NCBI GenBank assembly: GCA_008632985.1
Contig: QPGO01000099.1
Location: 227,679-291,678 of the forward strand
Source: Psammoneis japonica
Taxonomy: Eukaryota
Length of the DNA stretch: 64,000 nucleotides
Direction of reading: 5' to 3'
Shown in pieces: positions 23,077-62,004 of this stretch. The position numbers and the translations under genes were made by a program. The notes beneath the pieces were generated by a model that saw only the letters and a list, made by a program, of their open reading frames with translations, had not been told where the DNA came from and made no database searches. Each line of letters begins with the position of its first letter. Positions within the stretch are counted from its first letter, which is position 1.

Positions 23077-26000
23077 CATTACATGTAAATACCGTATGTT
23101 AGCACTGTAGCCCATGTGTGATGTATAATGAATGTCCTAAAACCAACACTGTCTTCTTATTTGCGTGTAATGTATTCCGTACCTACGTCAATGAACTACG
23201 ATGACTATCCACATACGGTTTCCCCGGAAGCAGGGCCGGTCCCGTTTCTTAGCTTTCCCAGAGAGTTTTTTTGGGATTTTGGAGCGAATTGGATACTGGA
23301 GGCAACGTTGATAGGTGGTCAACAATCCACTTGAGACAGGTAAAACCGCAAGTAGCAAGCACGAACCATGGCGCTGTTTCAACGTAGGGCAAACGCTGCT
23401 TGCGAAGGCTCTAAAACAAAGGATATGAACCTCTTTGACGCTAAAGTCGAGCTGGAGTCAATTGGTTTCCAGACCGTCTGGTCAGAGAAGAACAGGTTGG
23501 TGGGCTCATATTCCGAGTTTCGATGGGAAGAATTGCTGGTCGTCGACACCCTCGTCTTTGTAGAGGAGATGTCGAACAGTTGAGTAGCGAGACTCTTCCA
23601 GAACTGGTTCACCGTAACACTACGTACCGCTGGTGGCCACCGGTCGGGTGTTGTCGCAGAACCGAGACACTCCTTGTCTATTATTCTCGGGAACCCATAA
23701 CAGCAGATACGGCTTGCTACATTGCTCAGTATAAGAAACGAAGCTTCACTAGTCTCACACTTATTGCTGCACAAGATTCAACCTTTACGTCCCACCGGCT
23801 CTCAAAAAAGCATGTCCCAACGTTTGGCTGCGCTATGTTACCTAGAATTCGCTATCTCTCTGGCAGGTTGACGGGCTTGCGAGAAGACGCTCCTTCGCAA
23901 CGAAAGCTGTTCATCCTCATAATGGTCAGCGTTTGTGCCGCATTGCTCGAGGATCCGAGCCTTGCTTTCAAGGCTTTTGTGTATTTGTTATTGTTCATGT
24001 TCCCTGCAAGTGCAATCTGTCCACATGTCCACTTCACTAGGTGCAACAGACGATTCCGGACCAACGATAGCATCAGCACTTTCGTTGTTTAGGAACGATG
24101 GCGAACAAATAGTAGCAGCAAGTCACTGGCTGGTTTAAGTTATTCTAATCTTTTATCAAGCACTGGCCATTTGTTCGAGAGCTTGCGAGTGGCATTTCCG
24201 ATGAACGCGACCACTCTCCATGAGAGTCTTGTCTTCTGTTTTTGACGTGATGAAAAATTGCCTGGGCGGCTGTCTCCAGCCTCGCAGATGGGCAACAAAC
24301 GATCCATTCACAGCAGCGCCAACACCCAAGATTGAAGTCACAAGGCATGCAGTGGAAGCAGCCTGCCAGCTGGAGTGCAAAACGGTTTGATCCATTTCAT
24401 CCTCCGTGGCTTCCTCCAGATCACAAAAATTGAATCCTTCAACTGGAGTTCCCAGAGTGTCTTTTTCATCCAGCTGCTTCTTTGCCTGTTTCTTCACAAA
24501 CTTGATCACATCTTCATCATTGCCTTCCTGAGCACAGACATCACCTGATGATTTTCCACTGTGTCTTTGCAATCCATCATTGGATCTGAGAGTCCACCAA
24601 AGTGACCTGCAAGATTGTCAACTGCCACAAGAGAATCCAGACATTTCACAAACTCGAGGCACTCACCTGAGCTTTTCTGGGTTGTGGGATGATGAATGGT
24701 GCAAACATCCAGCCCCACAATGTCTTGCTGATGAGACACAAGGCACAAGGCTCCTCCACCACAAGTTCTTGGCATTTTTCTTCACCTCACTTCAGAAATG
24801 GATCACAATCATGAAATCTTGCAACTTCATCATTGCTTGCATGAATTTCTAAAGAAAGGGAAATTGCAGCCAAGAGTGCAGAGCGTGTGGCTCACTGCAG
24901 TCAATCACAAAGAACAAAGCATGCACCATGATGACTCCAAAGCAAGTGGTTTGGACATGGACTTAAAACACACAGAGATGGAATGATGCAGAGTCCTGGA
25001 AGCCACAAGCCAGGGCAAGCAAAGACCAGTGCAACAATGTCATCTTTGTTGGTGGTTGATGAGAAAGATTGTTGATTCCCTGGAACAAAACATGTCAAGA
25101 GAAATGATGACATCGGTGGCTGAACACAGCTCATTTTGGAAGCTGGGTGTTTTTTTCTGAAGTGCATCCATCAAAGACCAACAACCACATCTGTGGTTGT
25201 TGCCACATCGTGGGCATGACCAACCAACAAAGAACAAGACTTCATCATGATGCTCACAACAGAGCTGCAGCTTGCATTTGGAAGATTCATCATGCCAGCA
25301 CAGGCTCTGAAATTTTGAAAAAATTCCACATCACCTGGCCCCATTGCAGCATTGTGCAGCTGTTGGCACATGTGGATGAAACCTGCCAGCAGGTCCCAGC
25401 CAAGAACACATGCCAGTTGTGCTTGAAGGCCAAAGAGCTCACAACTGTGCAAATTCCATGTGTTTCTGGTGCAGATGCAGAGCCCAATGCCAGGCTCTGC
25501 TGCTCTGCTCTCAATTTGCTCACAATTCTGACAGTTGGCTCAAAGAAGCACAACGCCAAAAGAAAGTGCAAGTGTTGCTTGTGTTTCCATTTGCAATGAC
25601 ACACTTGCTCTGCCATCTCCATGGGGGTGCACAGCAATGGACTCAACAAACAAAGCTCAGCAATGGCATCTCCCTCCACAGGCAAAGCCAAGGAGCCACA
25701 GTGCTGTCTTCTGGTCAGAACAAGTCTCTGCCATTGCCTGCAAACATGTGGACAGCCCACAGAAATCACAGATCTGGGCAGTTGCTTTTGAATGTTCTTG
25801 GAGAGAGGTGTCAAAGATTGCCTCATTTTTGACTTTGTTTGCTGCTCAGCCTGGCACCACAAGCTGGGTCCATCTGGCTGTGGCTGTTGACAAGAACCTC
25901 TCCTTGTGCAAGTGTGCAGGCAATGCATCATGGCTGAGAGATGGCCCACAATGCCATCTCCTCTGTGGCTGTTAACTTTGTGTCCCTTGGAGGTTAGAGT

Positions 26001-26499
26001 CAAAAACCTCTTTCTTCAACTGGGCTGAAGAGCATGTCAATCTTGCAATTTGTGATGCAAAACTGGTGCAGGATCTCTTTCATGCACTCTGCTGGTTTGG
26101 GAGGAGCCTGCTGGCACATGTCCAACAATCAGTCTCAAACACTGTCAGCTGCAAGAAAAGAGGTGGGGAACTCATGTGCTGCTTGGCATGTGGCTGCAAA
26201 ACCCAGTGCAATGAGCAGCTGCCATTCCTGCTGCACCCACCACAAGCCACATGTCAGTCAGTCATGATGTGGTGGATGGCAGAAAATTGTTGCTTGGAGA
26301 ACTTTTGTGCCATTGTGTGACTCCTGTTGCACCTGCTGCCACCCTCTGCAAACACTGCTGCCGTGCTCTGCTGCTCATGTCAAGATGGCATCATTTGGCA
26401 GAGGAGTGAGGGCCACCCAGTGCACCCAGCGGGCAATGTGGAAGGTCTGCAAGCCCTGAAAAGAAACAGAAACAACAGCTCTGCAGATGAGCTTTTCAC

Positions 26500-28350
26500 C
26501 TTGCTTCTGTGCAGAGCAAACCAAAATGCAGTGTTTTCAAAGCAAAAGAGAAGCTTTCCAGCCAGTGTTGGCAGCAAGAGCTCCAAGCATCAACTCCACA
26601 GAAGCCTCGCGTCAAAGCACGTGAAAGTGTGAGGGATGATTTTCAGTCACAGCTCTGTGACTGATGCAACCCTCTGCTTGCAACCCCAAAAAATGTTGGG
26701 AACTTTGCATCAGCATGACATCAGTTGGCTGGAAATGCATTTTGGCAAAAAAATGGGGGGTTTGTGATGTGGCATTGTGGCCCACAGCTGCCCAGGGCAG
26801 GAGAGGCCATTGGAAAGCTTGAAGGCAGCATGGCACCCAGCATTTTTGACAAAGCACATGAGATGGAAGGGGCTGAAAATTTGTTTGGTTGTGGTCTCTG
26901 TAATTTGTTGCTTCCAGCACACTGCTGGCTGATCTTGACGCAGCCACACCTTGTTGCTGTGCTGTGCTGAGCATCTGAAACAAGTTGCAGTGCATTGGGA
27001 CCCAAGCTGGACAAGTTTGGAGCCCCAACACTCACACCAAAATCAGATGCCCCCCACATCAAAATGTTTTTGGCACTTGGAGTCATGTGAATGAGCTGCT
27101 GGCGCTTGGAGTTTTGTGAATGAGCTGCTGTTTGGACCACCCGTTGAAGAACGGAGTCAGCAAGAGAAAGTGCTGATCACACAACATTGCTGCCCCCACA
27201 ACATTGTGCCTGTTGAACAGAGACAAAAACACCGGTGTTCTCCAAGGCACATCAGAGTGCAAACCACAGTGATGCAGAGCACCTTTCTCACAGCAATGTT
27301 TTTGTCTGTTGCAGTGCAAAATTCCATTGTTTCAAACCTTGACAGTTGTGCAGCTGGCAAACACATGTCAACTGTGACAGATGAACATTTCATGCTGTGG
27401 GACTCCCTGTTTTTCACCATGAAACAGGGACACGTTTTCCCTGTGAGAGTGCCCACCCTCCATCCCCACAAAACTTGCAAGTTAAAATCATTTGCATTGT
27501 GCCATGAACATTCCATTTTGTTGTTTGCATTTAAATCAAATGATGCTGACAGAGACAACACCCCAAAGTTTGCAGCAGCAGTTGCAGCTCACTTTCTTGG
27601 AGTGCCACTGCTGGCAGCCACTTTGTTCATTGCCAAAAAAGTGCAGAGAACATGTTGTGAGAGTGCAACACAGATGAGCCAACACTGCCAACAGGAACAG
27701 CAACATGGGCTCACCAGTGAATCCGGTGCCGCTGATTCTAGAGCAGGCCAGTTTGTGGCAGGAGCTGCTGTTCCATTGTTTGAATTGCCACTGCTCTGTT
27801 CCACCCCATTCATTGCCAAAAAGAGCAGAACATGTTGTGAGAGCACAACACAGATGATCCAACATGCTGCAACCCACAGGAACGGCAACATGGACTCACC
27901 AGTGCATCCAATGCCGCTGATTCTGGAGCTGGCAAGTTTGCAGCAGAAGTGCAGTTGCTCTGATGTCAACCACATGTGTTGATGAAAGGGACTTGCTTCT
28001 TCCATCAGCCACTCAAGCATCATTTCACAAGCACAGTGTGCTGAGCTGCACCATGTCTTTCCACTCCACCAGCACAGCAAAAGCACAAAGGCATTTCTTT
28101 TGAACCAGGCTGGAAAACAAGTGCTGCTTGGCAATGACATTTCAACATTCCACATTTGCTGCAGGAGAATGTTTGCAAAGCTGCAAATGGTTTTGACAAA
28201 AGCAAACAAGTCTGTGCTCAAATCTGTCATTGTGAGGAGCTGCAAAGTGCTGGCAGCAGGAGTTGGCTGCAGCAGCCAATCCTGTTTGGATTTTGGCCCT
28301 TGCACAGCAAAATGTTTCCTCCTGCCAACCAAGAACAGACACAAGCCTCA
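26500..28350 (+). pseudogene. Hypermutated SF2 DEAH helicase relic (divergent copy E)
   Basis: IFDKAHEMEGAENLFGCGLC (~26845) aligns with IFDEAHQMEG/AGSLFGYSIY in other copies; also GPKLDKFGAPT and motif V-like IVRSCKVLAAGV. Confidence 0.65.
27600..27940 (+). repeat. Tandem duplication with ~185-bp period
   Basis: TGCCACTGCT..TTCATTGCCAAAAA..AGAACATGTTGTGAGAG..ACAGATGA..CTCACCAGTG..GCCGCTGATTCT.GAGC occurs at ~27603 and again at ~27786. Confidence 0.8.
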
Positions 28351-28536
28351 CAGAAGAATGACGCAACCAACACAGACTGTGGTTGTGGGCCTCTCTTCAC
28401 TGCACCAGCAGCCACTGTCTGCTGGCTGGCCCAGAGCATGCATCAGCGCACGTGCGGCACACACTTCTGCTGTGAGCACTTTGTGCATCAAGCGGATGTC
28501 CAGAATCATCAATCGACATTGGCTGGCATCAGTGTG

Positions 28537-28746
28537 GGGGAAGTCTCCAGCCAGCTGCGGGCTGAAGAAGAATCTTGCATGGAAAGTGCACTGAAAGAGT
28601 CTGTTGATCTGTGTGTCAGGGGGGTTTGGTTGACACTGGACAGACTCGATGTCTTTTGCACACACACAAATTGTGCCAGCAAAACCCCCAAAAATGCACT
28701 GACGAGCAGACTTTTTTCAGCCAGCAGCTGGCTGGAGACTTCTCCC
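28537..28746. repeat. ~210-bp element bounded by ~40-bp inverted repeats (MITE-like)
   Basis: GGGGAAGTCTCCAGCCAGCTGCGGGCTGAAGAAGAATCT versus AGACTTTTTTCAGCCAGCAGCTGGCTGGAGACTTCTCCC. Confidence 0.65.
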
Positions 28747-29189
28747 AAGTGGGCCCTCTCTGCACACGACATCACAGCAGGTGGAAAAAGCTGCTGCTTT
28801 CTGATGCTTGCTCAACATGATGAGGGGCTCTTGTTTTCTTTTGGCGCTTCTGTCTGTGTTGCAGTTCTTTGCTTCTTTGCAATTTCACCCAATGTTGAGA
28901 GTGGTGCAACAATGTCCCAGAGAATGTTTTCAACTTGTGGATGTGTTGAATGACACAGTTGCTGAACATCTCATTGAACCATTTGTCCCAGGTGCTCAAC
29001 AAAGACATGCATCAAAGATCTGTGTGGACATGAATGTTCTCTCTCCCGCAAACAAACACCACAAAAATCAGGGCCATCACAGAACTGATGTGCATGAGAG
29101 GAGGACATCACCAATGAAGCATTCTGCCTTGTTGCTGAAACAAAACAATGGCTGTCAAGATTGGGGCAGTTGTCATGACAACATTGCTG

Positions 29190-31020
29190 ACTTGATCCCA
29201 CATCATTGTGAAAGAAACAATGCAAGAGCCAATGTCCAACTTCTTCTGGGTTGAAGCAAAACTTTGCTTGCTCTGGAGATGATTGCAAGATTGACTCAGG
29301 AAGGAGCAGGTCCCAATCAATCAAGAGTTCTGTCTGCAGTTTGTGTGACACTGAAACCAACTTTGGCTGAACTTCTTGCTGACACTCCGCACGCGTGCAT
29401 TCCTCAACTTTGACTGCTGTCTCTTCCCAACAGCAACTCCTTGTTGGCACACACAGTCTCCAAAACAAATCACAGTTTCAGGGCCCAAGCTTGACAAGTG
29501 TGGCACACAAACATTCTTGACAAAAAGTGGAGCAAGTGCCACTTGTTGCCTCATGGGCATTCAAAGCTTTGTCAATGAAGAGTTTTTTGGGCGTTCATTG
29601 AACATGGATGCCAGGAGAAAGCATGGAGCAAAACATTGCGGCTCCAATGACACTGTGTGTTTTGGATGGGAACAAACTCTGTGCCGCAATGGGCGACAAT
29701 GTCAACAATGAAGGGGGCACCTTTCCAACTTTTGCCATCCAGCATCTTTCCATGGAGCTTGTAAGCTGAGCACAAGCTTTTGCAGATTCAGCCAGAATTC
29801 TGTTGAAGGAGGCATTTCTGTGTTTGCTGTTTGTGGTGGTCAAAGATGTTTCCACAAAATGCAAACAGCATCTGCAAACACTGGCAACAGGTGTCAAAGG
29901 TGGGATGGGAGTTGGTGGTGATTGTGGATCCTGTCCAAAGCTCCGTTCTTGCACGTCAAATGATCGGGGACATCAGCCGGAAAGCATTTGGCAAGCTGCG
30001 TGGCTGCACTCTTGTTCATGTTCCTGTCAATGGGGACAATGGATTGTCAGAGGATGCTTGCAGATGCAAACTGTTTGCTCTTGTTTTTGAGGCCATGGTT
30101 GTCAGGATGTCTTGTTTGTGATTGAAGAAAGCAGCAGATCGGAAGGCCTTTGAAAGACACAGAGCTCCCTTTCTCATGTGCTTGAGTCATCCAGGCTTCC
30201 TGTTCCATGTCATTTCAAATGAAGAATGACACAATGAACCTTGTCATTTGACAATGCAAAGACAAGAGTGCCCGGGATTGCATGTGTGATGTGCTCTTGG
30301 TGTGTGCAGGCCACAAAAGTCACTGCAATGTCACCAAACATCACAAAGAGAGTGGGGGACACTTGGACATTGGCTGCAAACACAATGATCAGTGAAAAAA
30401 TGTGGGAGGCCAGGCATTTTTTGTGAACATGAGCTTGAGAAGGCTGGCGTCAAGTGGAACATTTGTGATGACAATTGGAGTCATGATCACAGCCTGCTCT
30501 TGGCACACTTGGTCAGGGAAGGCAATTGCGAGAATGTTCCTTTTTGGCATGCTGAGGGGATGACTTTGCTCCAGGAAAATGGTTGGAATGTCAATGACAA
30601 GATTGTGAGCTTGGCAAGCTTGACATTTTTAGAGAAGAAAGACTCAAGGTGGCTGGAGTGGAGTTGGACGTGTTTGAAGCCAATGGGAGACAATGTGTTT
30701 TTTCTTCTCAAACAATTCAAGAAACAGAGCAGCCATTGTAGGGTGCCAAAGGCTCACAAGGAGAATAGGATGAATGACATGACAGCTAAAAAACAAGGGA
30801 AGCTGGACACTTCTTGACAGAAACGACTGGAAAAGGCTGGAGTTGAGTGGGGGACATTTGCGCTGAACGATGGGAGACAATGTTTTCTCTTCTCAAACAA
30901 TTTGCGGCACATGAGGAAAGTTGTAAAGTGCCTTGCACTCATGTTGAAAATGGAAAGAAACTTGGAAGATGGTTGGAAAATCAAAAGAAAACATTGAAGG
31001 CAGGAAAGTTGGAGAGAACA
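29190..31020 (+). pseudogene. Hypermutated SF2 helicase with helicase-associated (HA) repeats (copy A)
   Basis: LFPTATP (motif III), DPVQSSVLARQMIG (motif VI) and HA repeats such as RWETMFSLLKQFAAHEESCKVPCTHVENGKKLGRWLENQK. Collinear with 54720-56890. Confidence 0.85.
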
Positions 31021-39200: not shown

Positions 39201-40306
39201 TCTATCGTGATCTTGGTAGCCGTCCCGACTCATGAGTGACGGGCTAGTTCTAGAAGCATCACTTTCTCTTATGTGTGCAACTTTCGGAATTTGAAGTTCT
39301 GAACTCCCAAGCATCATCATACACCCGGACTTTCTTTTTTCGTAAGAATTTCTGAAAGACACTCACGTTGATCCTCTATTTGCTCTGCAGCGCTTGTCGT
39401 CCCAGCTTTTTGGTCTAAGATTTTGTCAATAAATACTTCTAATGTAGCTGATTTCAGGTGAAAACATCATGCTCTGTTCATTGGTAAGCCAAATCAGACA
39501 ACGCAGCCGCAATAAACACTCCCGACTCCCGAAACGCCATGGTGAATGAACCGCCATGTCGAGCGTCGCGCGCGTACGTCGCGTCATTGAGTCCGTCTGT
39601 CCACCCCCCGCTCCGTCTGTCCTTCACCTCAACACCGTACAGTACAGCAAGGAGCATTCAGCATGTGAGCATGGCGCACCATGATGATTCTTCGCAAGAA
39701 TCGCGACTCCACGAACTGCACTGTGTTTTACAGAATGGGGGTGTTCTAGAGATTTGATTTATCTAGGATGGGAGGTAGGGTGAGAGATTGAGCCAATGAT
39801 CAGTGACTTTGCGAGCGAAACTTGAAACCGAACAACCGAGTCATCCATGACTGGTTCGCGGTTTCTTCAACAATCACTGCAACTGCGCTTGCGCAAGAGC
39901 ATTTATGGAACTTGGGAAAGACTGCCATGGTAGTTAAGAAAATGTGATTGTTGTGGACAAAGAGGTGGCGGGTTTAGGAGAAAAGGAGAAGATTGATCTT
40001 GTCCTTCCCGCAAGCCACGAGTAGTCGCGGATCGCGGAGTGAAACGATGAATGAATCAAGCTCGTTATTTTTTTCGTCTGCAATCTTCCTGAGAGTGTCA
40101 CTCTGCTGGCATAATCGGATACATCCACAATCGTGGTGCAAACGCTGAGTGGATACAAGTACAAAAGAAGCCTCATACAGGTTCGTGTCTTCTTTACGAA
40201 AGCAGCAATTTCGTCGCTTTGACTATCTCCTGGTGAATCTAAATAAGTTTGTCTCTCTCTTTCATCCCCGAACAGTTCCAAGAGTCTCTATATTAATTCA
40301 AAAAAG

Positions 40307-43300
40307 ATGATTCGCAAGGTTGCAACGATGCTCGCCCTTGCTCTGATCGGCGCAACGAGCGCCCAACCTTCGCTGCTGCGGTGCTCATTTTCGAAGGATG
40401 ACTGTCCGAGGTCAAAGTGCGGCAGTTGCTCCACGATTGGCTGTGAAAATGTTGGATGCTGTGGCATGATCATTCGATTGTCGCAGTCAGCGGACTTCAC
40501 AAATATATATATTGCGGCGGCGTTCTTACTCTCTCGCTTCAATTGCTATTCTTCTCTTTCTGTTGTTAGTATCTTCAAGCTGTTTGGGATCATCAATCTT
40601 GGCAAAGAATGACGTCTCTTGCTTCCCTGGTCCTTTTTCTTTCAAAAGTAGGGAGAATTGTCGTGATGCCACCATCTCCGCTGGGGGAACTGTCACATGC
40701 GGTAGGGCTGCGCTTTGCGTTTCTGATGCTTCTTTTTCGAACAATGTGCCCTTTCTGACACACTCCGTTTCTGCTTCCTTCCCTTGCTGACTAGGCCATT
40801 TTAGCTGCCTTCATTCCACAATCTCGGCAAGAAAAGTTGACTGTCTTGGTGGAAGAAGCGGAAGCTGTATTGATGCGAAAATTACAGCTGATGAGGTACA
40901 TTGCCTCCCCTGTAGAGGTAAATTGCATGCGTGAGGACCTGAATGATATGGATGGCATTACGGTTGCTCACGTTTGCTCCTGTCGTTTTTCCAGGCTGTT
41001 GTCGTGGAGCCATTATCAAGGCGGACAACATCAGTTGCTTTGGATATAGTAAGTATTGCTTACCCGTCGCTTCTTTCTCTATGAATCGCGGGTCACTCAC
41101 AATTCTCGTGCGTCAAATGGTTCTTGCTCCAGGAGGCTGCGAAGGTGCCAAAATCTCCAAGGCGACCATGGTGAATTGCAGTAAGCCCGGTAAGTGCAAA
41201 TTACGGTTGCGAGTGATTTGGCTTGTCGTTGCTAGAAAGTGCAGTAGTCTGATCAATGCTTTGTTGTGTAGGTTTATCCAATTCTTGCGTGGATTCGGAA
41301 ATCAATGCAACCCAGGTCGACTGCCATGGTACGTTCAGAATAGTCTTCGTTGTGTCTCTATGTCTACGTGACGCAGACCATTATCTATACTCATCATCCT
41401 ATGCTTTGCGCTTATTCACCATCTCAGTTTCTGCAAGCTGTAAAGGTGCCTCCATAAGGGCAATGGCTGATATCGATTGCCAAAGTACGTCACTTTTCTC
41501 GAACTCCTCTTTGATCCTCAAAAGATTGTCAAATTTTCTCATCCTCGTTCAATCATGCGCAACTGGGGCTTCCAGGCAGTGATAGTTGCAGAGATGCCGC
41601 ACTTTTTGTATCAGCCCACGTCAACTGTAGCGGGGTCACGAGTTGCTCCAACGCCACAATCACAGCATCCGATGGTGTTGATTGCGTCGGTTCAAGTGCG
41701 TGCCAGCATTCCGATATCACGACAACAAAGAATCTAAGTTGTACTGGTCCTTCTAATACTTGCCACAATGCTACGCTCAGGGCAGCAAAAGTGGATTGTG
41801 CGGGTAAGGTTATTGAGTTTGAGCACAAGTGCAAAAGCATCGCTGATTTGACTTACGATTTTGTTTGTGTAAATAATTGATTTACTGAAGCAAATTGCTA
41901 CGGCGCCGAAATCGACGCCAATGAAGTCAATTGCTCTGGCACGTGTTCCAAAGCAACGATCACAGCTGATGAAGTCGACTGCTCTGGTACGCTTGAACTT
42001 GATATGATTGCTTGTCGTCAATTGCATGTCTCTCAGAGTTATTTATGTTGTGCGCGTTGAAGGTGATTGTCGTGGCGCCAAGATCAAATCGAGAAAAAGC
42101 AAAATTGAGTGCTCAGGTAAAACAAAATACGTTTGATTCTCTCTTCCTATCACATTTTCTTATTGTTCGAACACAATTATTCTCTCTATTAGACCTCTGG
42201 AGCTGTAAGGATGCCGAAATTAACGCAGACATTGTGGATTGCACGGGTACGTTTCATATGACCGTGTAAGTGCATTTCTCGCTTTTGGCGATCGTTTAAC
42301 CCGATTCATATTTCCACCCTTTTCAGGTCAAAATAGCTGTTACAACGCGAGTATCACAGCTCGATGCATAGGATGCAAAAAGGATGCTCGAGCGTGCACC
42401 GAATGCAACGCCAGGAATGGTGGGGGTTGTATCGAATACAGCTCCGACGAAACAATCGATGATGTGTGTCCAAAGGTCGAGCCGAAATGCGATCTTCAAC
42501 CTAAGTGCAAAAGCACGGCTCTTGCTATTGGTGGGAGTGGATCGGCAGCCGTTTCTGCATCTGATATTTTCGACGGAACGCTTTACGACTGCGGCAACGT
42601 GTCGCTCTCGGCAACCCCTCGCTCATTTACGTGTGACAATGTCGGGAACAATCTTGTGACACTTACGGCTGAGAGTCAGAGTGGCCAGTCAAGCTCGTGC
42701 GAGGCGACAGTCGCTGTTCAAGATGTCACGCGTCCTCGTGTATGGTGCACTTTGAAATCCATTAACCCTCGCCCTGGTAAATATTCCGTCATATTCGGAG
42801 CAACTGATAACTGTGGTGTTCAGTCTACCAATGCTATTATCACAGCTGGAGGGAAGGTCCGAAAGGTCCAAGCCGGCAGTAAGGTCTTCCTTGAAGAGAG
42901 CAAGAATGATAGGTGCCTGTTCAGGAAGAAGCCCAACGGTGATCTTAAGATCAAATGCGCAGGAAAAGTGGAATTGAAGGTTGTCGCTAGGGACACGGCC
43001 AACAACCGTCGCAGTTGCACCTCTGTTGTCATGCCTTCGACCAAATCCCTAGGACCCGTCCCCACCATGGCTCCAACCGCTCCCACCGACGTGGTTCTTG
43101 CCGCGGTCCGAGAGGCCATTGCCCAACAACCCTCAATCGCCTCGAGTCTCGACACGCTTCCGGATTTGGCGTCGGACTATGAAGGCATTTCCGACAATAC
43201 CGACTTTCCTCCCAATGCCCGAGCCATGTCGTGGCTCTTGTATCAAGATCCGATGCAACCCGGTCCGGGCAATCCTGAACTCGTGACGCGGTACGCGGCT

Positions 43301-43879
43301 GCCACACTTTACTACTCGACGGGCGGTCCGACGACTTGGACCAATCGAGGTTTGTGGCTCGAGGGCGATTCCATTTGTGATTGGAACGGGTTGTTTTGTG
43401 ACGTCTTTACGGGTCACAGAAAGGAAATTTCGCTGCGCAGCAACAATTTGGGAGGACAATTGCCCAATGAACTGGCACTGTTTCAAGACATGGAAGCCTT
43501 GGATGTGCGGCGCAATGCCATTACCGGTCCGCTTCCGGGACTAGCGTTGAGTGAGCTTCCGCGTTTGACAATTCTCTATGTGGACAATAACCAATTTACC
43601 GGAAGCATTCCCAGTATCTTGGGAGAACGAAATTTGTGTACGTGAATATCGATTGTTATTTCTGTGTTTGTTTAATAGTTGTGGTTTGCGCAGTACTGAC
43701 TTTTTCTTCTTGTTGTTTCTCTCGTTTTAGCCATTTTCTTTTCCCAAAACAACAACTTTACGAGAAGCTTTTTCCCATACACCTTTTGTGGAGATGACGG
43801 TTTGAACTTGAAGCAAGCGGGATTATCCTGCAGGGTGACGATTTGTTTCTGCTGCAAACGCGAGTTGCACTGCTTTTGA
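40307..43879 (+). CDS. Secreted multi-domain protein: micro-exon-encoded Cys repeats + HYR/Ig-like region + LRR domain
   Basis: Signal peptide MIRKVATMLALALIGATSA; ~16 C-xx-A-x-I-x-A-xx-V-x-C repeats on small exons; FTCDNVGNNLVTLTA..CEATVAVQD.T.P; diatom-type LRR cap RYAAATLYYSTGG..W..WL....C.WNGL.C followed by NNLGGQLPNEL repeats; terminal exon 43731-43879 ending C..CC....CF. Confidence 0.8.
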
Positions 43880-44040
43880 ATGCCTGGGGAAAGATGTTGT
43901 GTGAGAAATTTGTCCCACAAGAATTAAACGTGATCTTTGTGTTTTGCATGTTGGTTTGACGGAATGACTTGAATAAATTTTAAGAAAGAAATGTTGCTCT
44001 TGAACATGAGAGAATGAAGTTAAAGGTGTAGTTTTTAGGC

Positions 44041-44240
44041 ACGTCTATCAGCTACCGGTAGTAGAGAGGTTTTGGGAGATGTCCTCTACTCTCTAGCTCT
44101 ACTCTAGCTCTAGAGAGACTATGTGTACGTGTCTATCAGCTACCGGTAGTAGAGAGGTTTCTGGGAGGTGTCCTCTACTCTCTACTAGTGGCTAGCTCTA
44201 CTCTACTAGCTCTATTAGAGACTATGTGTGCTGTACGTGT
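44041..44240 (+). repeat. Two ~90-110-bp tandem units rich in CTCTA/CTAG with an internal hairpin
   Basis: GTCTATCAGCTACCGGTAGTAGAGAGGTTT..GGGAG.TGTCCTCTACTCTCTA..TAGAGA(GA)CTATGTGT occurs twice. Confidence 0.9.
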
Positions 44241-45600
44241 CTGTGCTTTTGACGCCTTCTGGACATTGGGCCTGGAGTGCATCGTTCGTGTCCCTTGCGG
44301 AGAAACTCTCCAACATGCCGATTGTTTTAAAAGCTCAAACATCGATGAGAGTGGCAGGAGTGTGTTGGAACAGCAGGAATGATGGGCAATTCAGGAAAAC
44401 CCAGGCACATCACAAGAAAGAAGAAATTGTGAACACTGACGTGGAAGACTGGGTGACTGTTTTTGTTTCTGACTTATCATTGCTGATCTCTCTCAACTCT
44501 CAGTTCATCTCATTCTTTGGAGCAAATTGTTTGGCATGTGTGATTTTGTGAGTGGCATCACCAGACACCCGGCACCTGCTCCACCGTCAGTTTAAATTTT
44601 GTTTGGGGGGGGGCAGCACAAGCAGCCAAGGCAAGTGTGACAAGGACACAGGAAGTTTTGCAAGATTTTCTTTTGACGGCATTGACTCACACTGGTGGTT
44701 CAACAGCTCCATGCTGCTGTGTGTGAAAATTGACCCCCCACATTTTCAGCCAAATGCTCCCATGTTGACAGACAAAAAGAATTCAAACACAAGGTTGTTG
44801 ACACCTTTGAAGGTCGTGGGTGGAGGTCAACATCAGTTGCAAGAAGCCAGGTGCTGAAATTTAGTTTTCTCACACTTGCCCATGCAGCGAAGGTGCCTTT
44901 TGAAAAGCCAGCTCCATTTTTAAAATTTGTGCGCCATCAGCTGTGCCTGCCTGTTGCACACTTGTGCAAGACATTGGCAGCACAAAGGGCAGTTGAACAA
45001 CAATGCTCATCTCTTGGGAATTTCAGGCTCCAACAGGGGTCAAAGTCTGCCCAATTCTTCCAACAATTTTGAGTGGAGCGGGTCATGCAGGACTCAAATC
45101 TCGCGTGACTTGGGGCATGACAAAGGGAAATTGACCCTTTCTCAACACCAAAGTGGATGATGACATCACCACAACACAAAACCTTGGTCTCATGCTCTTC
45201 AAACCAATGTCTTGTGTGAGTGCAACAGGCGTGCATTGTTCCCAGCACATCAGGTCGTGTTGTTTGAGGGTGGAAGTGGCTTTTTGCAGAGCACCTTCAT
45301 TGCACGTAAAAGCACAAGGGATGAATTTTAGTGACAGCTCTGCATCTGATGCAACTGTCTGCTTGTGACCCCATGAGTTGTCGGGAACTTTGCATTTGCA
45401 ATGTGCGTTGTTGGGCACACATGTGTGTGTGTTGACATTGTTCCGTTTCAATCGCACGTCAACAGTGGGTTTGTGCAAAGGACAGATCAGTCACACAGAA
45501 TTGATCGGATGTCGGAAATTGCAAGTGCGATTGCATGACGATGTTGACATCTTGGGTGTCAATGGCAATCGCATCCGGACAACTGTTGTCACGAACATGT
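44240..45600. other. TpA/CpG-depleted block 3
   Basis: Same composition as blocks 1 and 2; begins immediately after the TA-rich tandem repeat. Confidence 0.8.
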
Positions 45601-45927
45601 CGAATAACCCACTGATTTCTATTGTTCGTAGGACCTGCGGGAAGTCACCCCTGAGCGAAAGTCTCTGAGGAAATGGCACCCCTGAGTTGTAATAAAAACA
45701 TTTATGTTTGAATAAATCATAACTTTTTATAAAAGGATATTCGGGCTTAGATACATCGCATGTGATGTCTCCACTGCTGGCTCAGAACCTTTTGCTTTTC
45801 AATTTTTTCAACGAAACGATCCAGTGTGATTGCGACGATGACACCTCTAGCTAGAGGGAGCGACATATTGCGACTTGCAACTGCATATCTATATCATCGT
45901 TTTGGAGTACTTTAGACGTTGGTTATC

Positions 45928-47593
45928 ATGGTGGAATCAGATTGCGAATCTTGCGGGTGGATAGGTAAGAAAAGACAGTGTGTGCTCTCGATGAGGAAAA
46001 GAGACGCTACTACACATGACTTATGCCCATTCATGCTGATTTCTGCCGTTGCTTATGTTCAGCGGCAATTCTCTCCATCATTGCCTTTGGTTCGTTTGGT
46101 GCTCCAATCAAAAGTGACGCTGCCAACAGTGTGGATATCGACCCGTTGGTGTTTCAGAGCTACAAGACATTTATGTGTTTCGTGACGTCTTGGATTGTTC
46201 TATTCTTTGGTAAGAGAGTATGATGCGTGTTTCGCTCTGTAAAAGCCATCATGGCCTCTAAATCTAACTGTCGAATGCCCCCGTTTCGTAGGTCAAGAAT
46301 TCACATTTACACCGTGGGGAATTGTATCGGGACTTTTCTGGGTACCTGGAGGAGTTGCAACAGTTTATGCAGTGAGAACTGCTGGCCTAGCAATTGCGAT
46401 TGGAATTGGTTCTAGCTTTATCGTACTGGTACGTTGGCAATGTGGCAAATGCTTTTGGCAAATAACGGTACTCGTTTCAGCCATCAGATCTTACCTTGCA
46501 CGATACTCTTTAGGTTTCTTTTATTTGGGGGATATTCATCTTTGATGAAACTGTGCGATCCAGATTTGGAGCTTGTGTTGCGGTGTCGCTCATGATGACT
46601 GGTCTGTGGGGAATGAGTTATTACTCGTCACCCGAGACAAACGACAGCTTGCAAATGATTGGTACAGACGTGAATGCTCAAGTCACAGCTGGCACTTCTT
46701 TAGGGTACCAGGGCGTCGTCGATCACGACGAGAACGATGAACAGGAAAGTGCAGATTCTGCGGAGGAGTTGTCAAGCGAGAACAACAATACCGAGGCAGT
46801 GTCTTACCCAATGGAGTTGGGTCGTTCCGAAACTAGTGATGAGTCTACGCAGCCACCAAGGGTCCATATTGTTGCTAGTCCGACTGATAAGGTTCACATA
46901 TGCGGCTTTTCTGTAACTCGTCGCAAGTTGGGGATCGCGGCTGCTGTGTTCAACCGCGTGTGGGGAGGGAGCATCATGGTGCCCATGCAATGGTCTGGGT
47001 ACGTTACGGTGGTTGCTAGAGAGTCGCTTGAAACGGAATGCACTTTTGCTTATTCTTTGCACGTTTGTCACTTTCAATTACGCCAGAGATGATGCAAAGG
47101 GGATTGGTTACGTGATTAGTTTTTCGATTGGTGCTTCCATCATTACGCTGATACTCTGGTTGCTACGTTTTCTCTTTCACTTTTGCCGGACTCGAAGTAC
47201 AAAGCGGGCATTGCATGCATTGCCTTCTCTTCACATTCGAGTCATGTGGTTGGCTGGAGGTTTGTCGGGGACATTATGGAGCATTGGTAATTTCTTTTCG
47301 ATGATCTCGGTGGAATATCTCGGTGAAGGTGTTGGGTACAGTGTCGTCCAAACAGCCATGCTTGTTAGTGGTCTCTGGGGTATATTCTACTTTCGTGAGG
47401 TCGTGGGGACAGCTACGATTGGTAAATGGTTCGCGAGTGCGTTTTTGACGATTTGCGGTGAGTGCCACTAATCGGTCAGAGTTCCGAATGTTGCCAGGCG
47501 TACTAACCCAATGTCCTTGCGTTGACGCCCTTGTGACCGATAGGTATTTTGCTTCTAAGCTACGAGCATCACAAGCCTTCCACATCTGATTAA
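45928..47593 (+). CDS. TMEM144-like (DMT superfamily) transporter, multi-exon
   Basis: AFGSFGAPIK..DPLVFQSYK, FTPWGIVSGLFW, AGLAIAIGIGS and AGGLSGTLWSIGN..LGEGVGY..QTAMLVSGLWGIFYFRE; about five short introns. Confidence 0.85.
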
Positions 47594-57578: not shown

Positions 57579-58151
57579 CTCGTCCGAGGGGCGTCCCATC
57601 AAGGCAGCAAAGGTCTCGGCTTGCACCGCAGGGACTTCGACACGCCAGTTCTTGGGAGCTCCCGACATTTCAAATCCCATACGCTTCTTTGTCATCTTCA
57701 AAAGAGAAGCCCGAAGCTTCTTGATGCCCTGAGTATCGGGAGCATCCGTAGCGTGCTGTTTCTTGGCTTTTTCGAGTTTGGCTCGTGCTTCTGCTTCCTT
57801 TTGGGCTTTCTTGGTTTCTCGCTTATGACGATTTTGTAGTTTCTTTTCGAGTCCCATACGGCCATGTTTCTGTAATGCTTCTTGAATAAGATCGTCCCTG
57901 CTGTAGAGCTTCATTGGAGGACCGCATCCAATACCGCCACCAATCGACTGGTGGAGCAATACAGACAGGTCCTGAGCGTTCAGAAAGTACTCCTTTTTGG
58001 CCTCAGCCGAAGAAATCCAGGTTTCGTCATTATCTTCAATCAACCGATCTACGAAAGTACGGCGAGCTTCAGGGACTTTCTGAGAGTCACGAGTCGACGA
58101 CGTCGCGCTTTCGTTGTTGCTTACGTCCTGAAGAGCGTCCCGGTCTGACAT
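57372..58151 (-). CDS. XPA C-terminal-like domain protein, 259 aa
   Basis: WISSAEAKKEYFLNAQDL...PPMKLYSRDDLIQEALQKHG..LEKKLQNR resembles the XPA DNA-binding subdomain (ITKTEAK..YLL...DL...MKLY); no zinc finger seen. Confidence 0.7.
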   Translation of the reverse strand: MSDRDALQDVSNNESATSSTRDSQKVPEARRTFVDRLIEDNDETWISSAEAKKEYFLNAQDLSVLLHQSIGGGIGCGPPMKLYSRDDLIQEALQKHGRMGLEKKLQNRHKRETKKAQKEAEARAKLEKAKKQHATDAPDTQGIKKLRASLLKMTKKRMGFEMSGAPKNWRVEVPAVQAETFAALMGRPSDEQLETFCKKGAYYSESYSTEKLFGTSSEEALTRFFSREGVAQRIGETVTLRFKPCADELSITGWAEIAW

Positions 58152-58369
58152 GGCTTGACAAAATAAGAGCTATGCGGCTAAGAATAGAGAGTAAGGAGAA
58201 AAGGTATGTCTTATGAGATGAAGTGATTCTGTTTTTGACATCGTGTCGATCTTCGCTCGCACCGCTTCTCGTTTCGCGTCCAATTTTTTTGGCGCGACCC
58301 GGCTGTTAGTTGGAGCGAAGGCCAGAACTGTAGGAACGGCTGACGGGCTGACGTATTCTGGCTACATTA

Positions 58370-61300
58370 CATGCAGCACATTCTCATTCAACCGGACATC
58401 ATCCTGTGAAAGAGGTGCAGCAGGCTGGGTGTCGGAGGGCTTAAAAATGAGGGGAATGCCCATCATGCACGCTCCACTGTCACAATGGTAAAAGCAAAAT
58501 TCCTGGCAATGCAACACCACTTTCTGAAAAACAAGAGCACTGTTCTTTGTGGTGTTGGAACACATGTGTTGGGAAAAGCAACACAGGGGCTGGGATGGCC
58601 GCCTGTCTCTGTTGCAGCAAATGTGAGCAATGCACATGACCCAGCAGTCTCTGTTTCTGACTCTTTTTCTTTTCTGGAGCAATGCTTTCCAGAGTGCAAT
58701 CTGACAGGCAAAGTGAGAAAGGTGTTTTGTTGTGCTGCATGCCAAAAAAAGCTGACATGCTCACTCAAGACTCGCCGCAGACATGGCGTGCTCCAGAGCT
58801 CCAGGTGATGTGCAGAGGCACATGATCCCCATTGCTGGCCCATTTTTGCATTTGGCACAATGAGCTCCTTCAATTTTGATTTTTTCCAACATCGAAGGCC
58901 AAGTGTGCATGAAACTTTTGTTTTTTATGTGCGCCCACCTTTCTTTTTTCGAAACTGTCAAAACAGAAGGAGTTTGTTGTGCTGAGCACAAATTTCACCA
59001 AGTGTTGTCACATTCTGCATGAAAAAATGCTCTCTGTGCACATGCATTTTTTCTTTTCTTTTTTTGGCTCATTTTTGTGGTCTGCATCAACTCAACTGTG
59101 ACGTCCGAACATGCCCTGTTTTTCCACAGACACCAAACACAACATTTTTTGGAGTGCACCACAAAATCAGGATGTCCTCTCATCTGTCTCATCCACCAGC
59201 CTCCTTTGTGCACATTTTGCTGATGCCTCCAATGCACCATGGTTAAGAAGAGGAAGCAAAAGTCAGCTGGCCATCACAACAAGTCAGGAGCTGGCAACAA
59301 CAAAAACAAAAAGTGTCATTGTGATGGGTTGTCCTTTCTCCTTTCCAAGAAAACCTGCCCTTTCCCAAGTCAATGCTGAAGGAGCAGCTGCCACTCCCTT
59401 CCACCTCACCTTTGACAATGCCTCTGTTGCTCCTTCCACATCTTTTGCAGACTGCTGGTGCTGGGACAATCTGACGATGTCCAGGACAGATGACAATCAT
59501 GCACAGGAGAAGAAAGAAAGTGAGCAAAGGAGAGATTGTTGGATCTTGACAATGCATCTGTGCCAGTCTGTCCAATGCAACTTGGGCATGGCTTTGACAA
59601 CAGAGGACAGTCCATGACTGGGGCAAATGCAGCCATCATTGCATGGAACAATGTGATGAAATGGCCCTGCGAAACAAAAAGCTTTGGGGTCTCGAGCATC
59701 AGGCAGGCATGGATGTTGGCGGAAAGCACTGCCAACTTGGCAGGAAGTTTGAGGGACCAAGCACCAACATCTGCAGGTGGCTTGCCTGAAGGCACCATGA
59801 CAGACACAGCAGATTTGACATGCAATGTGATGTCATCCACAGGATCCATCCTGGCATCAAAATGGTGGGTGCATCTTCAACATGACAATTTTCATTCTTC
59901 CTGGCAGAGTCTTGGCAACAAGAGCTGCATCTTGAACCACAGATGCAACAGACACATCAGAACCTCCATGAGGAAGATTGCTCTTCAAGAATGCATTGTT
60001 CATGACTTGCTCGCACTGCTTTGGACCAGGAAACAAGCAGCTGAGAGGCCTTGGCAAGACTTCAGGGGTGAACCCTGCAGCAGGGTTTCTTGTCTGGTTG
60101 ATTTGCTTGTTGACAAAAGCACTTCTGTCACTTTCAGAGAAACTGGCAGTTGGATCCAGTGAAACCAATGCTCCTCAAATCAAGAATTTGGAAGGCTCAA
60201 CAGTTTGCAACCAGATGTGCTCAAACCATTGCCATTTCTTTTGGCACGGTTTTGCAGTCAGGCAGTGCTGGCCTGCTCCAGTTGTTGTGTGCTCCCACAG
60301 CATGTTGTGTGTGTCCCACATGCTGGCACACAAACTGAAGTTTTTGTGCTCAGTCTGAGCACTGCTGACAAATGGGGAAAAAAAGATGCTTCTTGCAAGG
60401 CTTGGCTGATGTCACATGAGATGGCAATGGGAGGGGGAAGGCAGCAGCAGCTGGGCACAGTCTGCTGGCCTGTTCAAGCTCCCAGGTGTCAAAAAAAGGG
60501 GGCATGATCTGTTGCTGGCCCATTTTTGCATTTGACGCAATGAACTCCTTCAATCTCAATTTTTCAAAATTGAAAGGTGAGTGCACACACACAACTTTTA
60601 TTTTTTTGTGTGCAATCACCTTTCCATTTTTGAAAGAATCAAAATTGAGCAGTTCATTGTGCCTGCAATGTTTGGCTGGCATCTCATGTGATGGATTGCG
60701 GATGACCTGGGGATCCACACAACAGGCCTGCTGCAATGCAGCACATGTGCACAGCTGACAATCTTCTCATGGGATGACAACATTTGCTCTTTTGAGCAGC
60801 AATGTTGGAAACCACAAGCCATGCACATTTGAGAGCAACACATTTTTTTGTTGATTTTTGATGTTGCTGCAACATTTGCACTGGACAGCCAATCTCTTGT
60901 TCCTCTGATTGTCTCAACAAAGCAACTGTGCAAAACTTGGGACAAACCAGTTTGTGACAGCTCTCCCAGCTGGGAGCTGCTTTCCTCTCTCTGGCAGCCC
61001 CAAAGCTGTGGAAAGAGTTTTTTTTTCATCAACCCTGCAAAGCCAAGAAGTCTCATCTGACCTTCTCTCTGACACCACACCTCTGGCCCAGAGCAGCTTC
61101 TTGGCACAGAGGCCATCTGCTGTGCACACCCCAAAGGGTGTGTTGTTCATCATCCCAGAAATGCACCCTTCTCTGAAGATGCAATGACGCTGCTGTTGGC
61201 TGCTGCCATCCACTTGCAGTGGCTGCATTGTGGGGCCAATGTGCCAGCCATCACCCGCTCAAGCCTGAGTTTGGTGGCAATCCCTTGGGCCACTGGTTTC

Positions 61301-61600
61301 TCAATTTAGCTGTCTCCTTGGTTTTCATTGTTGTCTCACTGTGCTCTTCAGCACAGTCAATGTCCAATTTGTCCTTCATTTGGGGTGCAATGAGACAAAA
61401 CTTCATCAACTGCGTGTTTGACAACCTCTTCTTGTGGACATGTGAACAAGAGCTTTCACAGGTGCAACAGGTGCCTCTAATGGATTAAAATGCCATTCAG
61501 CCATTCGAAACTCAAGGAGTTGAACAGGTTGATTTATCTCCTTTTTCGCAGATCTTGAGTTTTGAATGCGACCAGTGAGGTCGGATGATTGCCGGACGTG
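58370..61600. other. TpA/CpG-depleted block 4 with an internal ~120-bp diverged direct repeat
   Basis: TA nearly absent. TTGCTGGCCCATTTTTGCATTTG..CAATGA.CTCCTTCAAT.. occurs at ~58832 and ~60512. Confidence 0.85.
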
Positions 61601-62004
61601 CCTTTTCACAGCAGGGTAGGTGAAATGAGCGATGGGCGACGGATAGCGTAGTACCTTCTCCCTAGCTAATAGCTAGCTAGAGTATAGAGAGAGAGGGAGA
61701 GAGGGCACTCTAAAGGTGATCGTATAACTCAAAAGAACAGGGAATTGGATTTGTTTACGCCGCATCTACGATAGAATAGTCATGACCACGACGGTTACTG
61801 TGTGGAATGATGGTTTCGAGACACTCATTTCTCAAAGGTCGGCGTTTCACTTTCAAACTGATGTTTATAGCTTAGTCGTACACGTGGCGAGGCTAACTGT
61901 GCAAAAGGCCTTGAGTTCTCTTGAGAGCAGAGAAGCCTCCCGTTTTGTGATTTTGTGGTAAAGCGGTGAAAATAGCCATGCCTGATGCTATAGCTCCCAG
62001 TGCT

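What the first reader, a model, noticed from the sequence alone, without database searches (positions are those of the whole stretch)
40570..42370. Array of symmetric phase-1 micro-exons, each encoding one Cys-bounded ~18-aa repeat, in a secreted LRR protein
Seen: AG/GT-bounded exons 40995-41048 (54 nt, CCRGAIIKADNISCFG), 41133-41189 (57, GCEGAKISKATMVNCS), 41272-41328 (57, SCVDSEINATQVDCHG), 41428-41484 (57, SCKGASIRAMADIDCQ), 42063-42116 (54, DCRGAKIKSRKSKIECS) and 42193-42246 (54, SCKDAEINADIVDCT). Further exons carry 2-4 fused units (~40575, ~40795, ~41575, ~41891), giving ~16 repeats of C-xx-A-x-I-x-A-xx-V-x-C. The six single-repeat exons are multiples of 3 with phase-1 junctions, so each can be skipped in frame. 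This density is unusual for intron-poor diatom genes and is invisible in the ORF track. Inference: a disulphide-stapled beta-solenoid whose length or surface could be varied by exon skipping or shuffling, reminiscent of schistosome micro-exon genes.
Basis: partly seen in the sequence, partly recalled or inferred. Interest (0 to 1): 0.75.

Follow-up and report, generated by a model that had tools for sequence, protein, structure and literature searches.

The report
One-coil-per-exon diatom solenoid gene
This is an intact diatom gene for a secreted protein whose long cysteine-rich rod is encoded largely one turn per small exon, an unusual gene layout for an intron-poor alga that most likely records ancient exon duplication, not a proven way of making protein variants.

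Summary
All six single-repeat exons sit at the stated coordinates, with AG/GT borders and phase-1 junctions. They belong to a 13-exon gene (40307-43879, +) that splices into a stop-free 841-codon frame. All 12 introns are phase 1 and 76-109 nt long.

The product has a signal-peptide-like start and 17 Cys-bounded units of 16-26 aa, followed by an HYR-like Ig region and LRRs. It has no membrane segment. A four-unit exon folds with high confidence (pLDDT 94) into a beta-solenoid. The repeat has relatives in foraminiferal and diatom transcriptomes and borders on Pfam DUF7640.

The spliced product aligns through 10 of 11 junctions with those relatives. Units and introns are old: third-codon identity is 36% and the introns show no similarity to each other.

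The best reading is ancient tandem duplication of a one-coil exon together with its intron, followed by partial intron loss. Exon skipping is possible in frame but could not be tested, because no RNA run was listed. The likeness to schistosome micro-exon genes is formal only.

The parts
40307..40460 (+). Exon 1. It holds the ATG, a signal-peptide-like leader (MIRKVATMLALALIGATSA) and a Cys-rich N-terminal stretch. The donor is uncertain: 40461 GTGGCA, or 40443 GTGAAA.
   Evidence: Both donors keep the frame (841 or 835 codons), and neither fits the GTA[AC]G form of the other donors.
40570..40701 (+). Exon 2, 132 nt, phase 1-1, repeat units 1-2.
40795..40917 (+). Exon 3, 123 nt, phase 1-1, units 3-4.
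   Evidence: The foreign-only profile gives E 1.1e-4.
40995..41048 (+). Exon 4, 54 nt, phase 1-1, unit 5.
41133..41189 (+). Exon 5, 57 nt, phase 1-1, unit 6.
41272..41328 (+). Exon 6, 57 nt, phase 1-1, unit 7.
41428..41484 (+). Exon 7, 57 nt, phase 1-1, unit 8.
41576..41803 (+). Exon 8, 228 nt, phase 1-1, units 9-12 fused. This is the piece used for searches and folding.
   Evidence: Pfam DUF7640 gives E 0.0047 and 17.6 bits, below the cut-off. phmmer finds 29 relatives. The AlphaFold2 model has pLDDT 94.4.
41891..41986 (+). Exon 9, 96 nt, phase 1-1, units 13-14.
42063..42116 (+). Exon 10, 54 nt, phase 1-1, unit 15.
42193..42246 (+). Exon 11, 54 nt, phase 1-1, unit 16.
42327..43637 (+). Exon 12, 1311 nt, phase 1-1. 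It holds unit 17, a Cys-rich stretch, an HYR-like Ig region, a Pro/Thr-rich linker, an LRR N-terminal-like region and LRRs.
   Evidence: Pfam LRR_1 gives 26.6 bits against a cut-off of 20.6; HYR gives 14.1 against 21.7. The best database hits carry HYR or LRR families.
43731..43879 (+). Exon 13: the last LRR-like stretch, a Cys-rich C-terminal tail and the stop codon TGA.

Best explanation
This is a real, intact 13-exon diatom gene that is probably spliced in one constitutive way. It encodes a secreted protein of about 841 aa.

The parts, in order, are: a signal peptide; a rod of 17 stacked coils, each a 16-26-aa unit with two cysteines (C-x2-A-x-I-x-A-x2-V-x-C, then a C-x-G turn); an HYR-like Ig region; a linker; and a short LRR domain.

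The coils form a beta-solenoid, and the exons follow the coils. Ten inter-unit introns lie in the turn between coils, six of them exactly two residues after the closing cysteine, where the uninterrupted junctions mostly have a Gly. All are phase 1.

The layout is best explained by ancient tandem duplication of a one-coil exon together with its phase-1 intron. Later intron loss fused 2-4 coils into exons 2, 3, 8 and 9.

By analogy with other solenoid-plus-LRR surface proteins, the product most likely acts outside the cell as a rigid stalk or adhesive rod that presents Ig-like and LRR binding modules.

Shown: the gene model's internal consistency, the repeat's relatives, and the predicted fold. 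Inferred: the splicing itself, the disulphides, the history and the function.
For: Gene model: 12 GT..AG introns of 76-109 nt, all phase 1, giving a stop-free frame of 841 codons. Ten of the 12 introns shift the frame or carry stops if kept. Eight of 12 donors are GTA[AC]G.

Repeat: 17 units, found only at 40581-42385 on the + strand in the six-frame 64 kb, and never in an intron.

Independent support from relatives:
- A profile of 14 foreign proteins ranks the eight exon-bearing pieces first.
- phmmer with exon 8 against 1.84 billion representatives gives 29 proteins at E<=1e-3, the best at 1.1e-10.
- Of 20 clusters looked up, 10 are foraminiferal transcriptome proteins, 2 are diatom (Tryblionella, Attheya) and 8 name no organism.
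- Of 14 relatives scanned with Pfam, 9 match DUF7640 at E<=0.01 and 3 of them pass the cut-off.
- The spliced N-terminus aligns with these relatives through 10 of 11 junction residues, without gaps at several of them.

Fold: AlphaFold2 on exon 8 with a 15-row alignment gives pLDDT 94.4 and pTM 0.81, with two strands per unit. The top VIA-align rows are beta-solenoids: MinC C-domain Z 6.7, FHA secretion domain 5.8, MpAFP 5.4, bactofilin 4.7.

Age: units share 52% of nucleotides and 36% of third positions, adjacent units are like non-adjacent ones (0.52 vs 0.53), and intron pairs score at the shuffled level.

Intron positions: six of the ten inter-unit introns sit at +2 after the closing Cys, and five of the six intron-free unit junctions have Gly at that spot (read). 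G19 and G38 are invariant and G57 nearly so in the family alignment.

Secretion: a hydrophobic leader, no later hydrophobic window, 65 Cys and 12 N-x-S/T sequons.
Against: - No transcript evidence: no RNA run was listed, so every junction is a prediction.
- No orthologous genomic locus could be fetched, so the age and common origin of the introns rest on this one gene.
- The exon 1 donor is non-consensus and ambiguous.
- No near-identical predicted protein exists in the searched collections; the best identity is 37-45%.
- Exon 8 alone is below Pfam's DUF7640 cut-off (17.6 vs 28.1 bits).
- The structural Z-scores (<=6.7) are below the level the tool itself calls typical for a best chance row (7-8). 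They show the class of fold, not a relative. Foldseek found nothing at E<=0.001.
- One of the 29 phmmer hits (P0080) is an unrelated bacterial Ig/cadherin repeat protein, so E-values near 1e-6 for this repeat query can be inflated.
- The function is by analogy only.
Confidence: 0.65

Rival explanations
1. Diversification by splicing. The one-coil exons are skipped or combined in frame, so the cell makes solenoids of different lengths or surfaces from one gene, as schistosome micro-exon genes do.
For: All 11 internal exons are symmetric 1-1 and multiples of 3, so any of them can be left out in frame. Each small exon is one coil of a solenoid, and the break lies in the inter-coil turn, so losing one exon should leave a foldable rod (inference). 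Exon skipping has been reported for over a thousand P. tricornutum genes (PMC5859163, passages).
Against: There are no RNA data. Most donors are close to consensus and the introns are short (76-109 nt). From general knowledge of splicing, not tested here, short introns favour intron-by-intron recognition, where retention is commoner than skipping. The units are anciently diverged with no sign of recent exon gain, loss or exchange. Symmetry is a by-product of duplication in any case, so it does not by itself point to skipping.
Confidence: 0.1
2. Parallel intron gain. The repeat array was once uninterrupted, and introns were later inserted independently at the same favoured spot in many units: the G-starting codon in the C-x-G turn.
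For: By my reading of the exon ends, eight of the eleven split codons of introns 2-12 begin with G. Five of the 11 junction residues listed (introns 1-11) are Gly. Four of the ten inter-unit introns are not at the +2 spot but at +1, +4, +4 and +5. The four multi-unit exons have no introns at equivalent junctions.
Against: The introns share no sequence, so no recent introner-like burst is visible. Exon ends do not show a clear MAG|G protosplice pattern (read by eye). Ten independent insertions into one gene of an intron-poor genome, all in one phase, is less economical than copying one intron along with its exon.
Confidence: 0.15
3. The gene is not functional: a decaying or silent copy whose open frame is a leftover.
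For: There is no transcript evidence, no matching predicted protein in the collections, and mutated repeat blocks lie nearby.
Against: An 841-codon frame stays open across 12 introns with intact splice signals. All cysteine positions of 17 old, diverged units are kept. TA content is at host-gene level, unlike the mutated blocks (TA o/e 0.51-0.55 against 0.01-0.29).
Confidence: 0.05

Closest known systems
Pfam DUF7640 (PF24646) and the unnamed Cys-repeat proteins of foraminiferal and diatom transcriptomes (P0076, P0078, P0087, P0095, P0110 and others)
   Same: They share the same roughly 19-aa unit, with two cysteines and a C-x-G turn (alignment A1: nine invariant columns, namely C4, C17, G19, C23, C36, G38, C42, C55 and C62). 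phmmer E-values go down to 1.1e-10. The relatives also have signal-peptide-like starts.
   Different: Exon 8 alone is below the Pfam cut-off. The long foraminiferal proteins end in another Cys-rich module and a hydrophobic tail (by eye). None of the 14 relatives scanned, out of 29 hits, carries LRR or HYR families. Their gene structures are unknown, and no paper in the searched library mentions DUF7640.
Schistosome micro-exon genes (MEGs)
   Same: Both encode secreted products, with tandem symmetric exons whose lengths are multiples of three, so exons can be dropped in frame (PMC3961193, passages).
   Different: MEG exons are described as 6-36 bp (PMC3961193), or 3-81 bp with long introns up to 5 kb (abstract of bioRxiv 10.1101/2023.06.21.545858). 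Their variation through exon skipping has been observed. Here the exons are 54-228 nt, the introns are 76-109 nt, each exon is a structural repeat, and no isoform has been seen. There is no sequence relationship.
Repeat-per-exon genes built by tandem exon duplication, such as fibrillar collagen genes traced to an 18-residue primordial unit
   Same: A unit of about 18 residues (54 nt) is multiplied in tandem. Some exons hold several fused units. The product is a rod-like extracellular protein (abstract of PMC4450265; the '54-bp exon' detail is recalled).
   Different: The fold differs (triple helix against beta-solenoid). Collagen exons start with complete codons (recalled), whereas all junctions here are phase 1. 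The lineage differs too: animals against a diatom.
Beta-solenoid surface proteins and rods (FHA/HMW1-type secretion domains, MpAFP, bactofilin, MinC C-domain)
   Same: The predicted architecture is stacked coils of about 18-19 residues (Z 4.7-6.7, rmsd 2.1-2.8 A over 62-70 residues).
   Different: There is no sequence similarity (profile search of PDB sequences: 0 hits at E<=1). None of these is known to me to have two cysteines per coil in this pattern. The Z-scores are in the range the tool calls common.

Membership tests
Pfam DUF7640 (PF24646) | Score at or above the family's gathering cut-off (28.1 bits). | tested here: inconclusive
   Exon 8 alone (4 of 17 units) scores 17.6 bits, E 0.0047. 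The spliced protein could not be submitted. Three relatives of exon 8 pass: P0078 at 28.5 bits, P0095 at 37.7 and P0090 at 28.4.
Schistosome-type micro-exon gene | Most of the coding sequence is made of symmetric exons of 6-36 bp. | tested here: not met
   The exons are symmetric, but they are 54-57 nt (six exons) and 96-228 nt (four exons). A 1311-nt exon holds over half of the coding sequence. The definition is from PMC3961193.
Schistosome-type micro-exon gene | Protein variants made by exon skipping. | not testable with these tools
   No RNA run was listed.
Extracellular LRR protein | LRR profile match above the cut-off, together with a secretory leader. | tested here: met
   LRR_1 scores 26.6 bits against a cut-off of 20.6, and LRR_8 and LRR_4 match weakly. 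The leader was read by eye, and no hydrophobic 19-residue window exceeds 1.6 anywhere in the protein (highest 1.39, at the leader). No signal-peptide predictor was available.
HYR domain (PF02494) | Score at or above the gathering cut-off (21.7 bits). | tested here: not met
   The score is 14.1 bits, E 0.061. However, the best database hits to exon 12 are HYR-bearing bacterial proteins, at 34-38% identity over about a quarter of the query. I therefore call the region 'HYR-like Ig'.
Beta-solenoid fold | Stacked coils of parallel strands with a fixed repeat length. | tested here: met
   This is a prediction only: pLDDT 94.4, with strands at 8-11/15-17, 27-30/33-37, 46-49/52-56 and 66-68/71-74. 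The top structural rows are solenoids.
Class 1-1 shuffled modules of animal extracellular proteins | Symmetric phase 1-1 exons that each encode an autonomously folding domain. | tested here: not met
   Phase 1-1 is met for 11 of 11 internal exons. But one exon is a single coil of a solenoid, not a domain that could fold alone (inference).

The most novel reading that the evidence does not exclude
The one-coil exons are used combinatorially. By skipping symmetric exons, the diatom would secrete a graded series of solenoid rods of different lengths or surfaces, each carrying the same LRR head. That would be a micro-exon-gene-like diversification system in a photosynthetic protist, perhaps for mate, surface or microbe recognition. 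A lesser novel reading is that the repeat is an undescribed disulphide-rich solenoid family shared by diatoms and foraminifera.
Probability: 0.1. Interest if true: 0.75.

Novelty: new variant of a known kind. Interest (0 to 1): 0.36.

Why it matters
First, the gene shows how standard ORF- or prokaryote-style reading misses a whole protein domain in a diatom. The 17-coil rod lies in exons of 18-76 codons, and no predicted protein in the searched collections contains it.

Second, it is a clean example, in an intron-poor lineage, of exons that follow structural repeats. All twelve introns are phase 1, which makes it useful for work on how introns are kept or lost.

Third, it ties an uncharacterised Cys-rich repeat (bordering on DUF7640), otherwise seen mostly in foraminiferal transcriptomes, to a confident solenoid model and to an LRR/Ig context. 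That context suggests an extracellular binding or adhesion role.

If exon skipping were found, it would be a new way for a microalga to vary a surface protein.

Tried and rejected
RNA and genome data:
- RNA evidence: no RNA holder was listed, so read laying could not be used.
- Whole genome: none is held, so paralogues and genome-wide intron statistics could not be obtained.
- Metagenome scan with exon 12: 2 loci, each matching only residues 65-130 at 38% identity. I took these for HYR-type relatives and did not follow them up.

Sequence searches:
- Word-index search with exon 8 found nothing. With alignment A1 it found one protein, P0111, a Cys-repeat protein of unknown source.
- ESM Atlas: the best scores were 0.86-0.88, below the level the tool calls more than a lead. 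The clusters are unnamed and foraminifera are the commonest taxon.

Structure searches:
- Foldseek against PDB: no match at E<=0.001.
- Profile search of PDB sequences: 0 hits.

Repeats at the DNA level:
- Tandem Repeats Finder sees no array in the gene.
- Intron pairs score like shuffled sequences, which rules out a recent introner-type burst.

In-frame intron retention: introns 4 and 6 are multiples of three and free of stops. By my own rough estimate, about one such intron in twelve is expected by chance, so I gave this no weight.

Ice-binding idea: a few ice-binding solenoids appear among the structural rows (Z 3.6-5.4). Only 5 of 17 units have [TS]-I-[TS] on the strand (read), so there is no regular Thr ladder. 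I dropped the idea.

Literature: 'DUF7640' gave 0 papers. 'diatom' plus 'microexon' gave 1 paper, which is unrelated. A search on diatom, beta-helix, cysteine-rich and secreted listed nothing on this repeat (listing and abstract openings only).

Earlier notes of this scan: none for this locus, sequence or theme.
Full report
**Observation.** I read 39800-45600 and translated the six stated exons in all frames. Each has the stated length and is preceded by a pyrimidine-rich tract ending in AG. Each is followed by GTAAGT, GTACGT or GTAAAA, and each gives the stated peptide in the frame that borrows one base from the exon before (phase 1).

I extended this to a full model, which has 13 exons on the + strand:
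- E1 40307-40460
- E2 40570-40701
- E3 40795-40917
- E4 40995-41048
- E5 41133-41189
- E6 41272-41328
- E7 41428-41484
- E8 41576-41803
- E9 41891-41986
- E10 42063-42116
- E11 42193-42246
- E12 42327-43637
- E13 43731-43879

Joined, they give 2526 nt and 841 codons with no internal stop. All 12 introns are GT..AG, 76-109 nt long and phase 1, and all 11 internal exons are multiples of three. Only the first donor is doubtful: GTGGCA at 40461 or GTGAAA at 40443, and both keep the frame. If retained, 10 of the 12 introns would shift the frame or introduce stops. Introns 4 and 6 would not.

If phases were independent and about a third of introns were phase 1, twelve of twelve would be expected about twice in a million. 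That is my own arithmetic. The introns are probably not independent, as discussed under history below.

**The repeat.** The spliced product has 17 units at residues 56-376, each C-x(11-13)-C followed by a turn of 3-12 residues. The consensus is C-x-x-A-x-I-x-A-x-x-V-x-C. A profile of the units hits only 40581-42385 on the + strand in the six-frame translation of the whole window, and never inside an intron.

That test is circular, so I built a second profile from 14 foreign proteins alone. Its eight best hits in the 64 kb are exactly the ORF pieces that carry the proposed exons. The E-values are 1.4e-17 for E8, 1.1e-4 for E3, 6.7e-4 for E9, 0.0033 for E6-E7, 0.048 for E2, 0.085 for E10, 0.21 for E11 and 0.49 for E4-E5. 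The best background hit is 0.73. The single-unit exons are individually weak, as expected for 18 residues.

**Relatives.** phmmer with E8 (75 aa) against 1.84 billion representative proteins found 29 at E<=0.001, the best at 1.1e-10 and 37% identity. I looked up 20 of them:
- 10 belong to foraminiferal transcriptomes (Rosalina, Bolivina, Ammonia, Elphidium).
- 2 belong to diatoms (Tryblionella compressa, Attheya sp.).

Their sequences show the same C-x-G-x-x-S-C-x-x-A-x-I...V-x-C rhythm. Of 14 scanned with Pfam, 9 match DUF7640 at E<=0.01 and 3 pass its cut-off. One hit, P0080, is an unrelated bacterial Ig/cadherin repeat protein and so a false hit, which is a warning about repeat-inflated E-values. 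None of the 14 has LRR or HYR. E8 itself matches DUF7640 at E 0.0047, below the cut-off.

The spliced N-terminus, computed in a script, aligns with these relatives through 10 of 11 junction residues. The alignment runs without gaps at, for example, junctions 193 and 212. The splice model therefore yields turn lengths that match proteins derived from transcripts of other organisms. No papers mention DUF7640 in the searched library.

**Fold.** AlphaFold2 on E8 with the 15-row alignment A1 gave mean pLDDT 94.4 and pTM 0.81, with two strands per unit. Foldseek found nothing at E<=0.001. VIA-align against 48,161 chains put beta-solenoids on top:
- MinC C-domain, Z 6.7
- FHA secretion domain, Z 5.8
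- MpAFP, Z 5.4
- HxuA, Z 5.2
- bactofilin, Z 4.7
- left-handed beta-helix acyltransferases, Z 4.1-4.7

These Z-scores show the class of fold, not kinship. The disulphide 'staples' remain inference, because I had no coordinates.

**The rest of the protein.** The start (MIRKVATMLALALIGATSA) looks like a signal peptide, and no 19-residue window anywhere in the protein has Kyte-Doolittle hydropathy above 1.6; the highest, 1.39, is at this leader. There are 65 cysteines and 12 N-x-S/T sequons, 9 of them in the repeat region.

E12 carries LRR_1 above its cut-off and weak Invasin_D3, HYR and InlK_D3 matches. Its best database hits are bacterial HYR-domain proteins and LRR proteins, including one from the diatom Seminavis robusta. 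E13 completes the LRR region and ends in a Cys-rich tail. 'Secreted LRR protein' is therefore right.

LRR receptor-like genes change expression, and some evolve fast, during sexual reproduction in the diatom Pseudo-nitzschia multistriata (PMC5485032, passages). That gives context for a recognition role but no evidence for this gene.

**How unusual is the gene structure?** Earlier notes of this scan call the genome a diatom. In this window the three conserved genes I could recognise each have all their domains in one uninterrupted ORF: CDC48 (923 codons), a mitochondrial carrier (334) and pirin (336). P. tricornutum has 0.7 introns per gene and 53% intron-less genes (PMC5859163, passages). Twelve introns in a 2.5-kb coding sequence is thus an outlier. 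I could not measure this genome's own average, because no genome is held.

**History.**
- Units share 52% of nucleotides, 41% of residues and only 36% of third positions.
- Adjacent units are no more alike than distant ones.
- Introns share no detectable similarity, and Tandem Repeats Finder sees nothing.
- Six of the ten inter-unit introns sit exactly two residues after the closing Cys. Five of the six intron-free unit junctions have Gly at that spot, and the matching Gly columns G19 and G38 are invariant in the family alignment.

I read this as an old duplication of a one-coil exon with its phase-1 intron, followed by intron loss that fused units in E2, E3, E8 and E9. Independent intron gain at a favoured site is the main rival. 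Only orthologous loci can decide between the two.

**The diversification idea.** In-frame skipping is possible for every internal exon, and a solenoid should tolerate the loss of a coil. However, symmetry follows automatically from duplication, the splice sites are ordinary, the introns are short, and I have no RNA. Schistosome micro-exon genes are described with 6-36-bp exons and observed exon skipping (PMC3961193, passages). A preprint abstract gives 3-81 bp and introns up to 5 kb. The likeness is formal. A closer parallel for the origin is the repeat-per-exon design of fibrillar collagen genes, traced to an 18-residue primordial unit (abstract of PMC4450265).

**Verdict.** The structural inference is supported as a prediction. 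The diversification idea is untested and, for now, unsupported. It is an interesting but not extraordinary gene: a new domain combination and an unusual exon layout for a little-known repeat family.

Noticed in passing
window 24001-31000, about 44300-46000, and 58001-62000: These blocks are almost free of TpA and poor in CpG, with an excess of TG/CA. TA observed/expected is 0.01-0.09 at 24-30 kb, 0.14-0.24 at 58-62 kb and 0.41 at 44-46 kb, against 0.5-0.7 in genes. This matches the TpA-erasing hypermutation of repeats that earlier notes of this scan describe for the same genome. The solenoid gene itself is at host level (0.51-0.55).
   Followed up: partly
window 44040-44230: Just downstream of the gene, a stretch of about 90 nt (beginning GTCTATCAGCTACCGGTAGTAGAGAGG) occurs twice in tandem, with short CTCTAG-type repeats inside. 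Its nature is unknown.
   Followed up: no
window 42521-42840 (exon 12, residues about 65-170): The closest relatives of the Ig-like region of this diatom protein are HYR-domain proteins from bacteria, for example one named Marixanthomonas spongiae, at 34-38% identity. Two metagenome loci match the same residues. Possible bacterial ancestry of this module was not examined.
   Followed up: no
window 8634-14133, both strands: A cluster of ORF pieces carries FG-GAP_2 repeats on both strands (five pieces with matches at E 3e-6 to 8.6e-15). They may be two divergently arranged FG-GAP genes with introns or frame breaks.
   Followed up: no
P0076-P0104 (relatives of exon 8): The long foraminiferal relatives repeat a two-part plan. 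Each has a Cys-repeat array followed by a conserved module of the type ICRSGS.C...C..NGC, and they end in a hydrophobic tail. They look like membrane-anchored surface proteins that form a sizeable uncharacterised family.
   Followed up: partly
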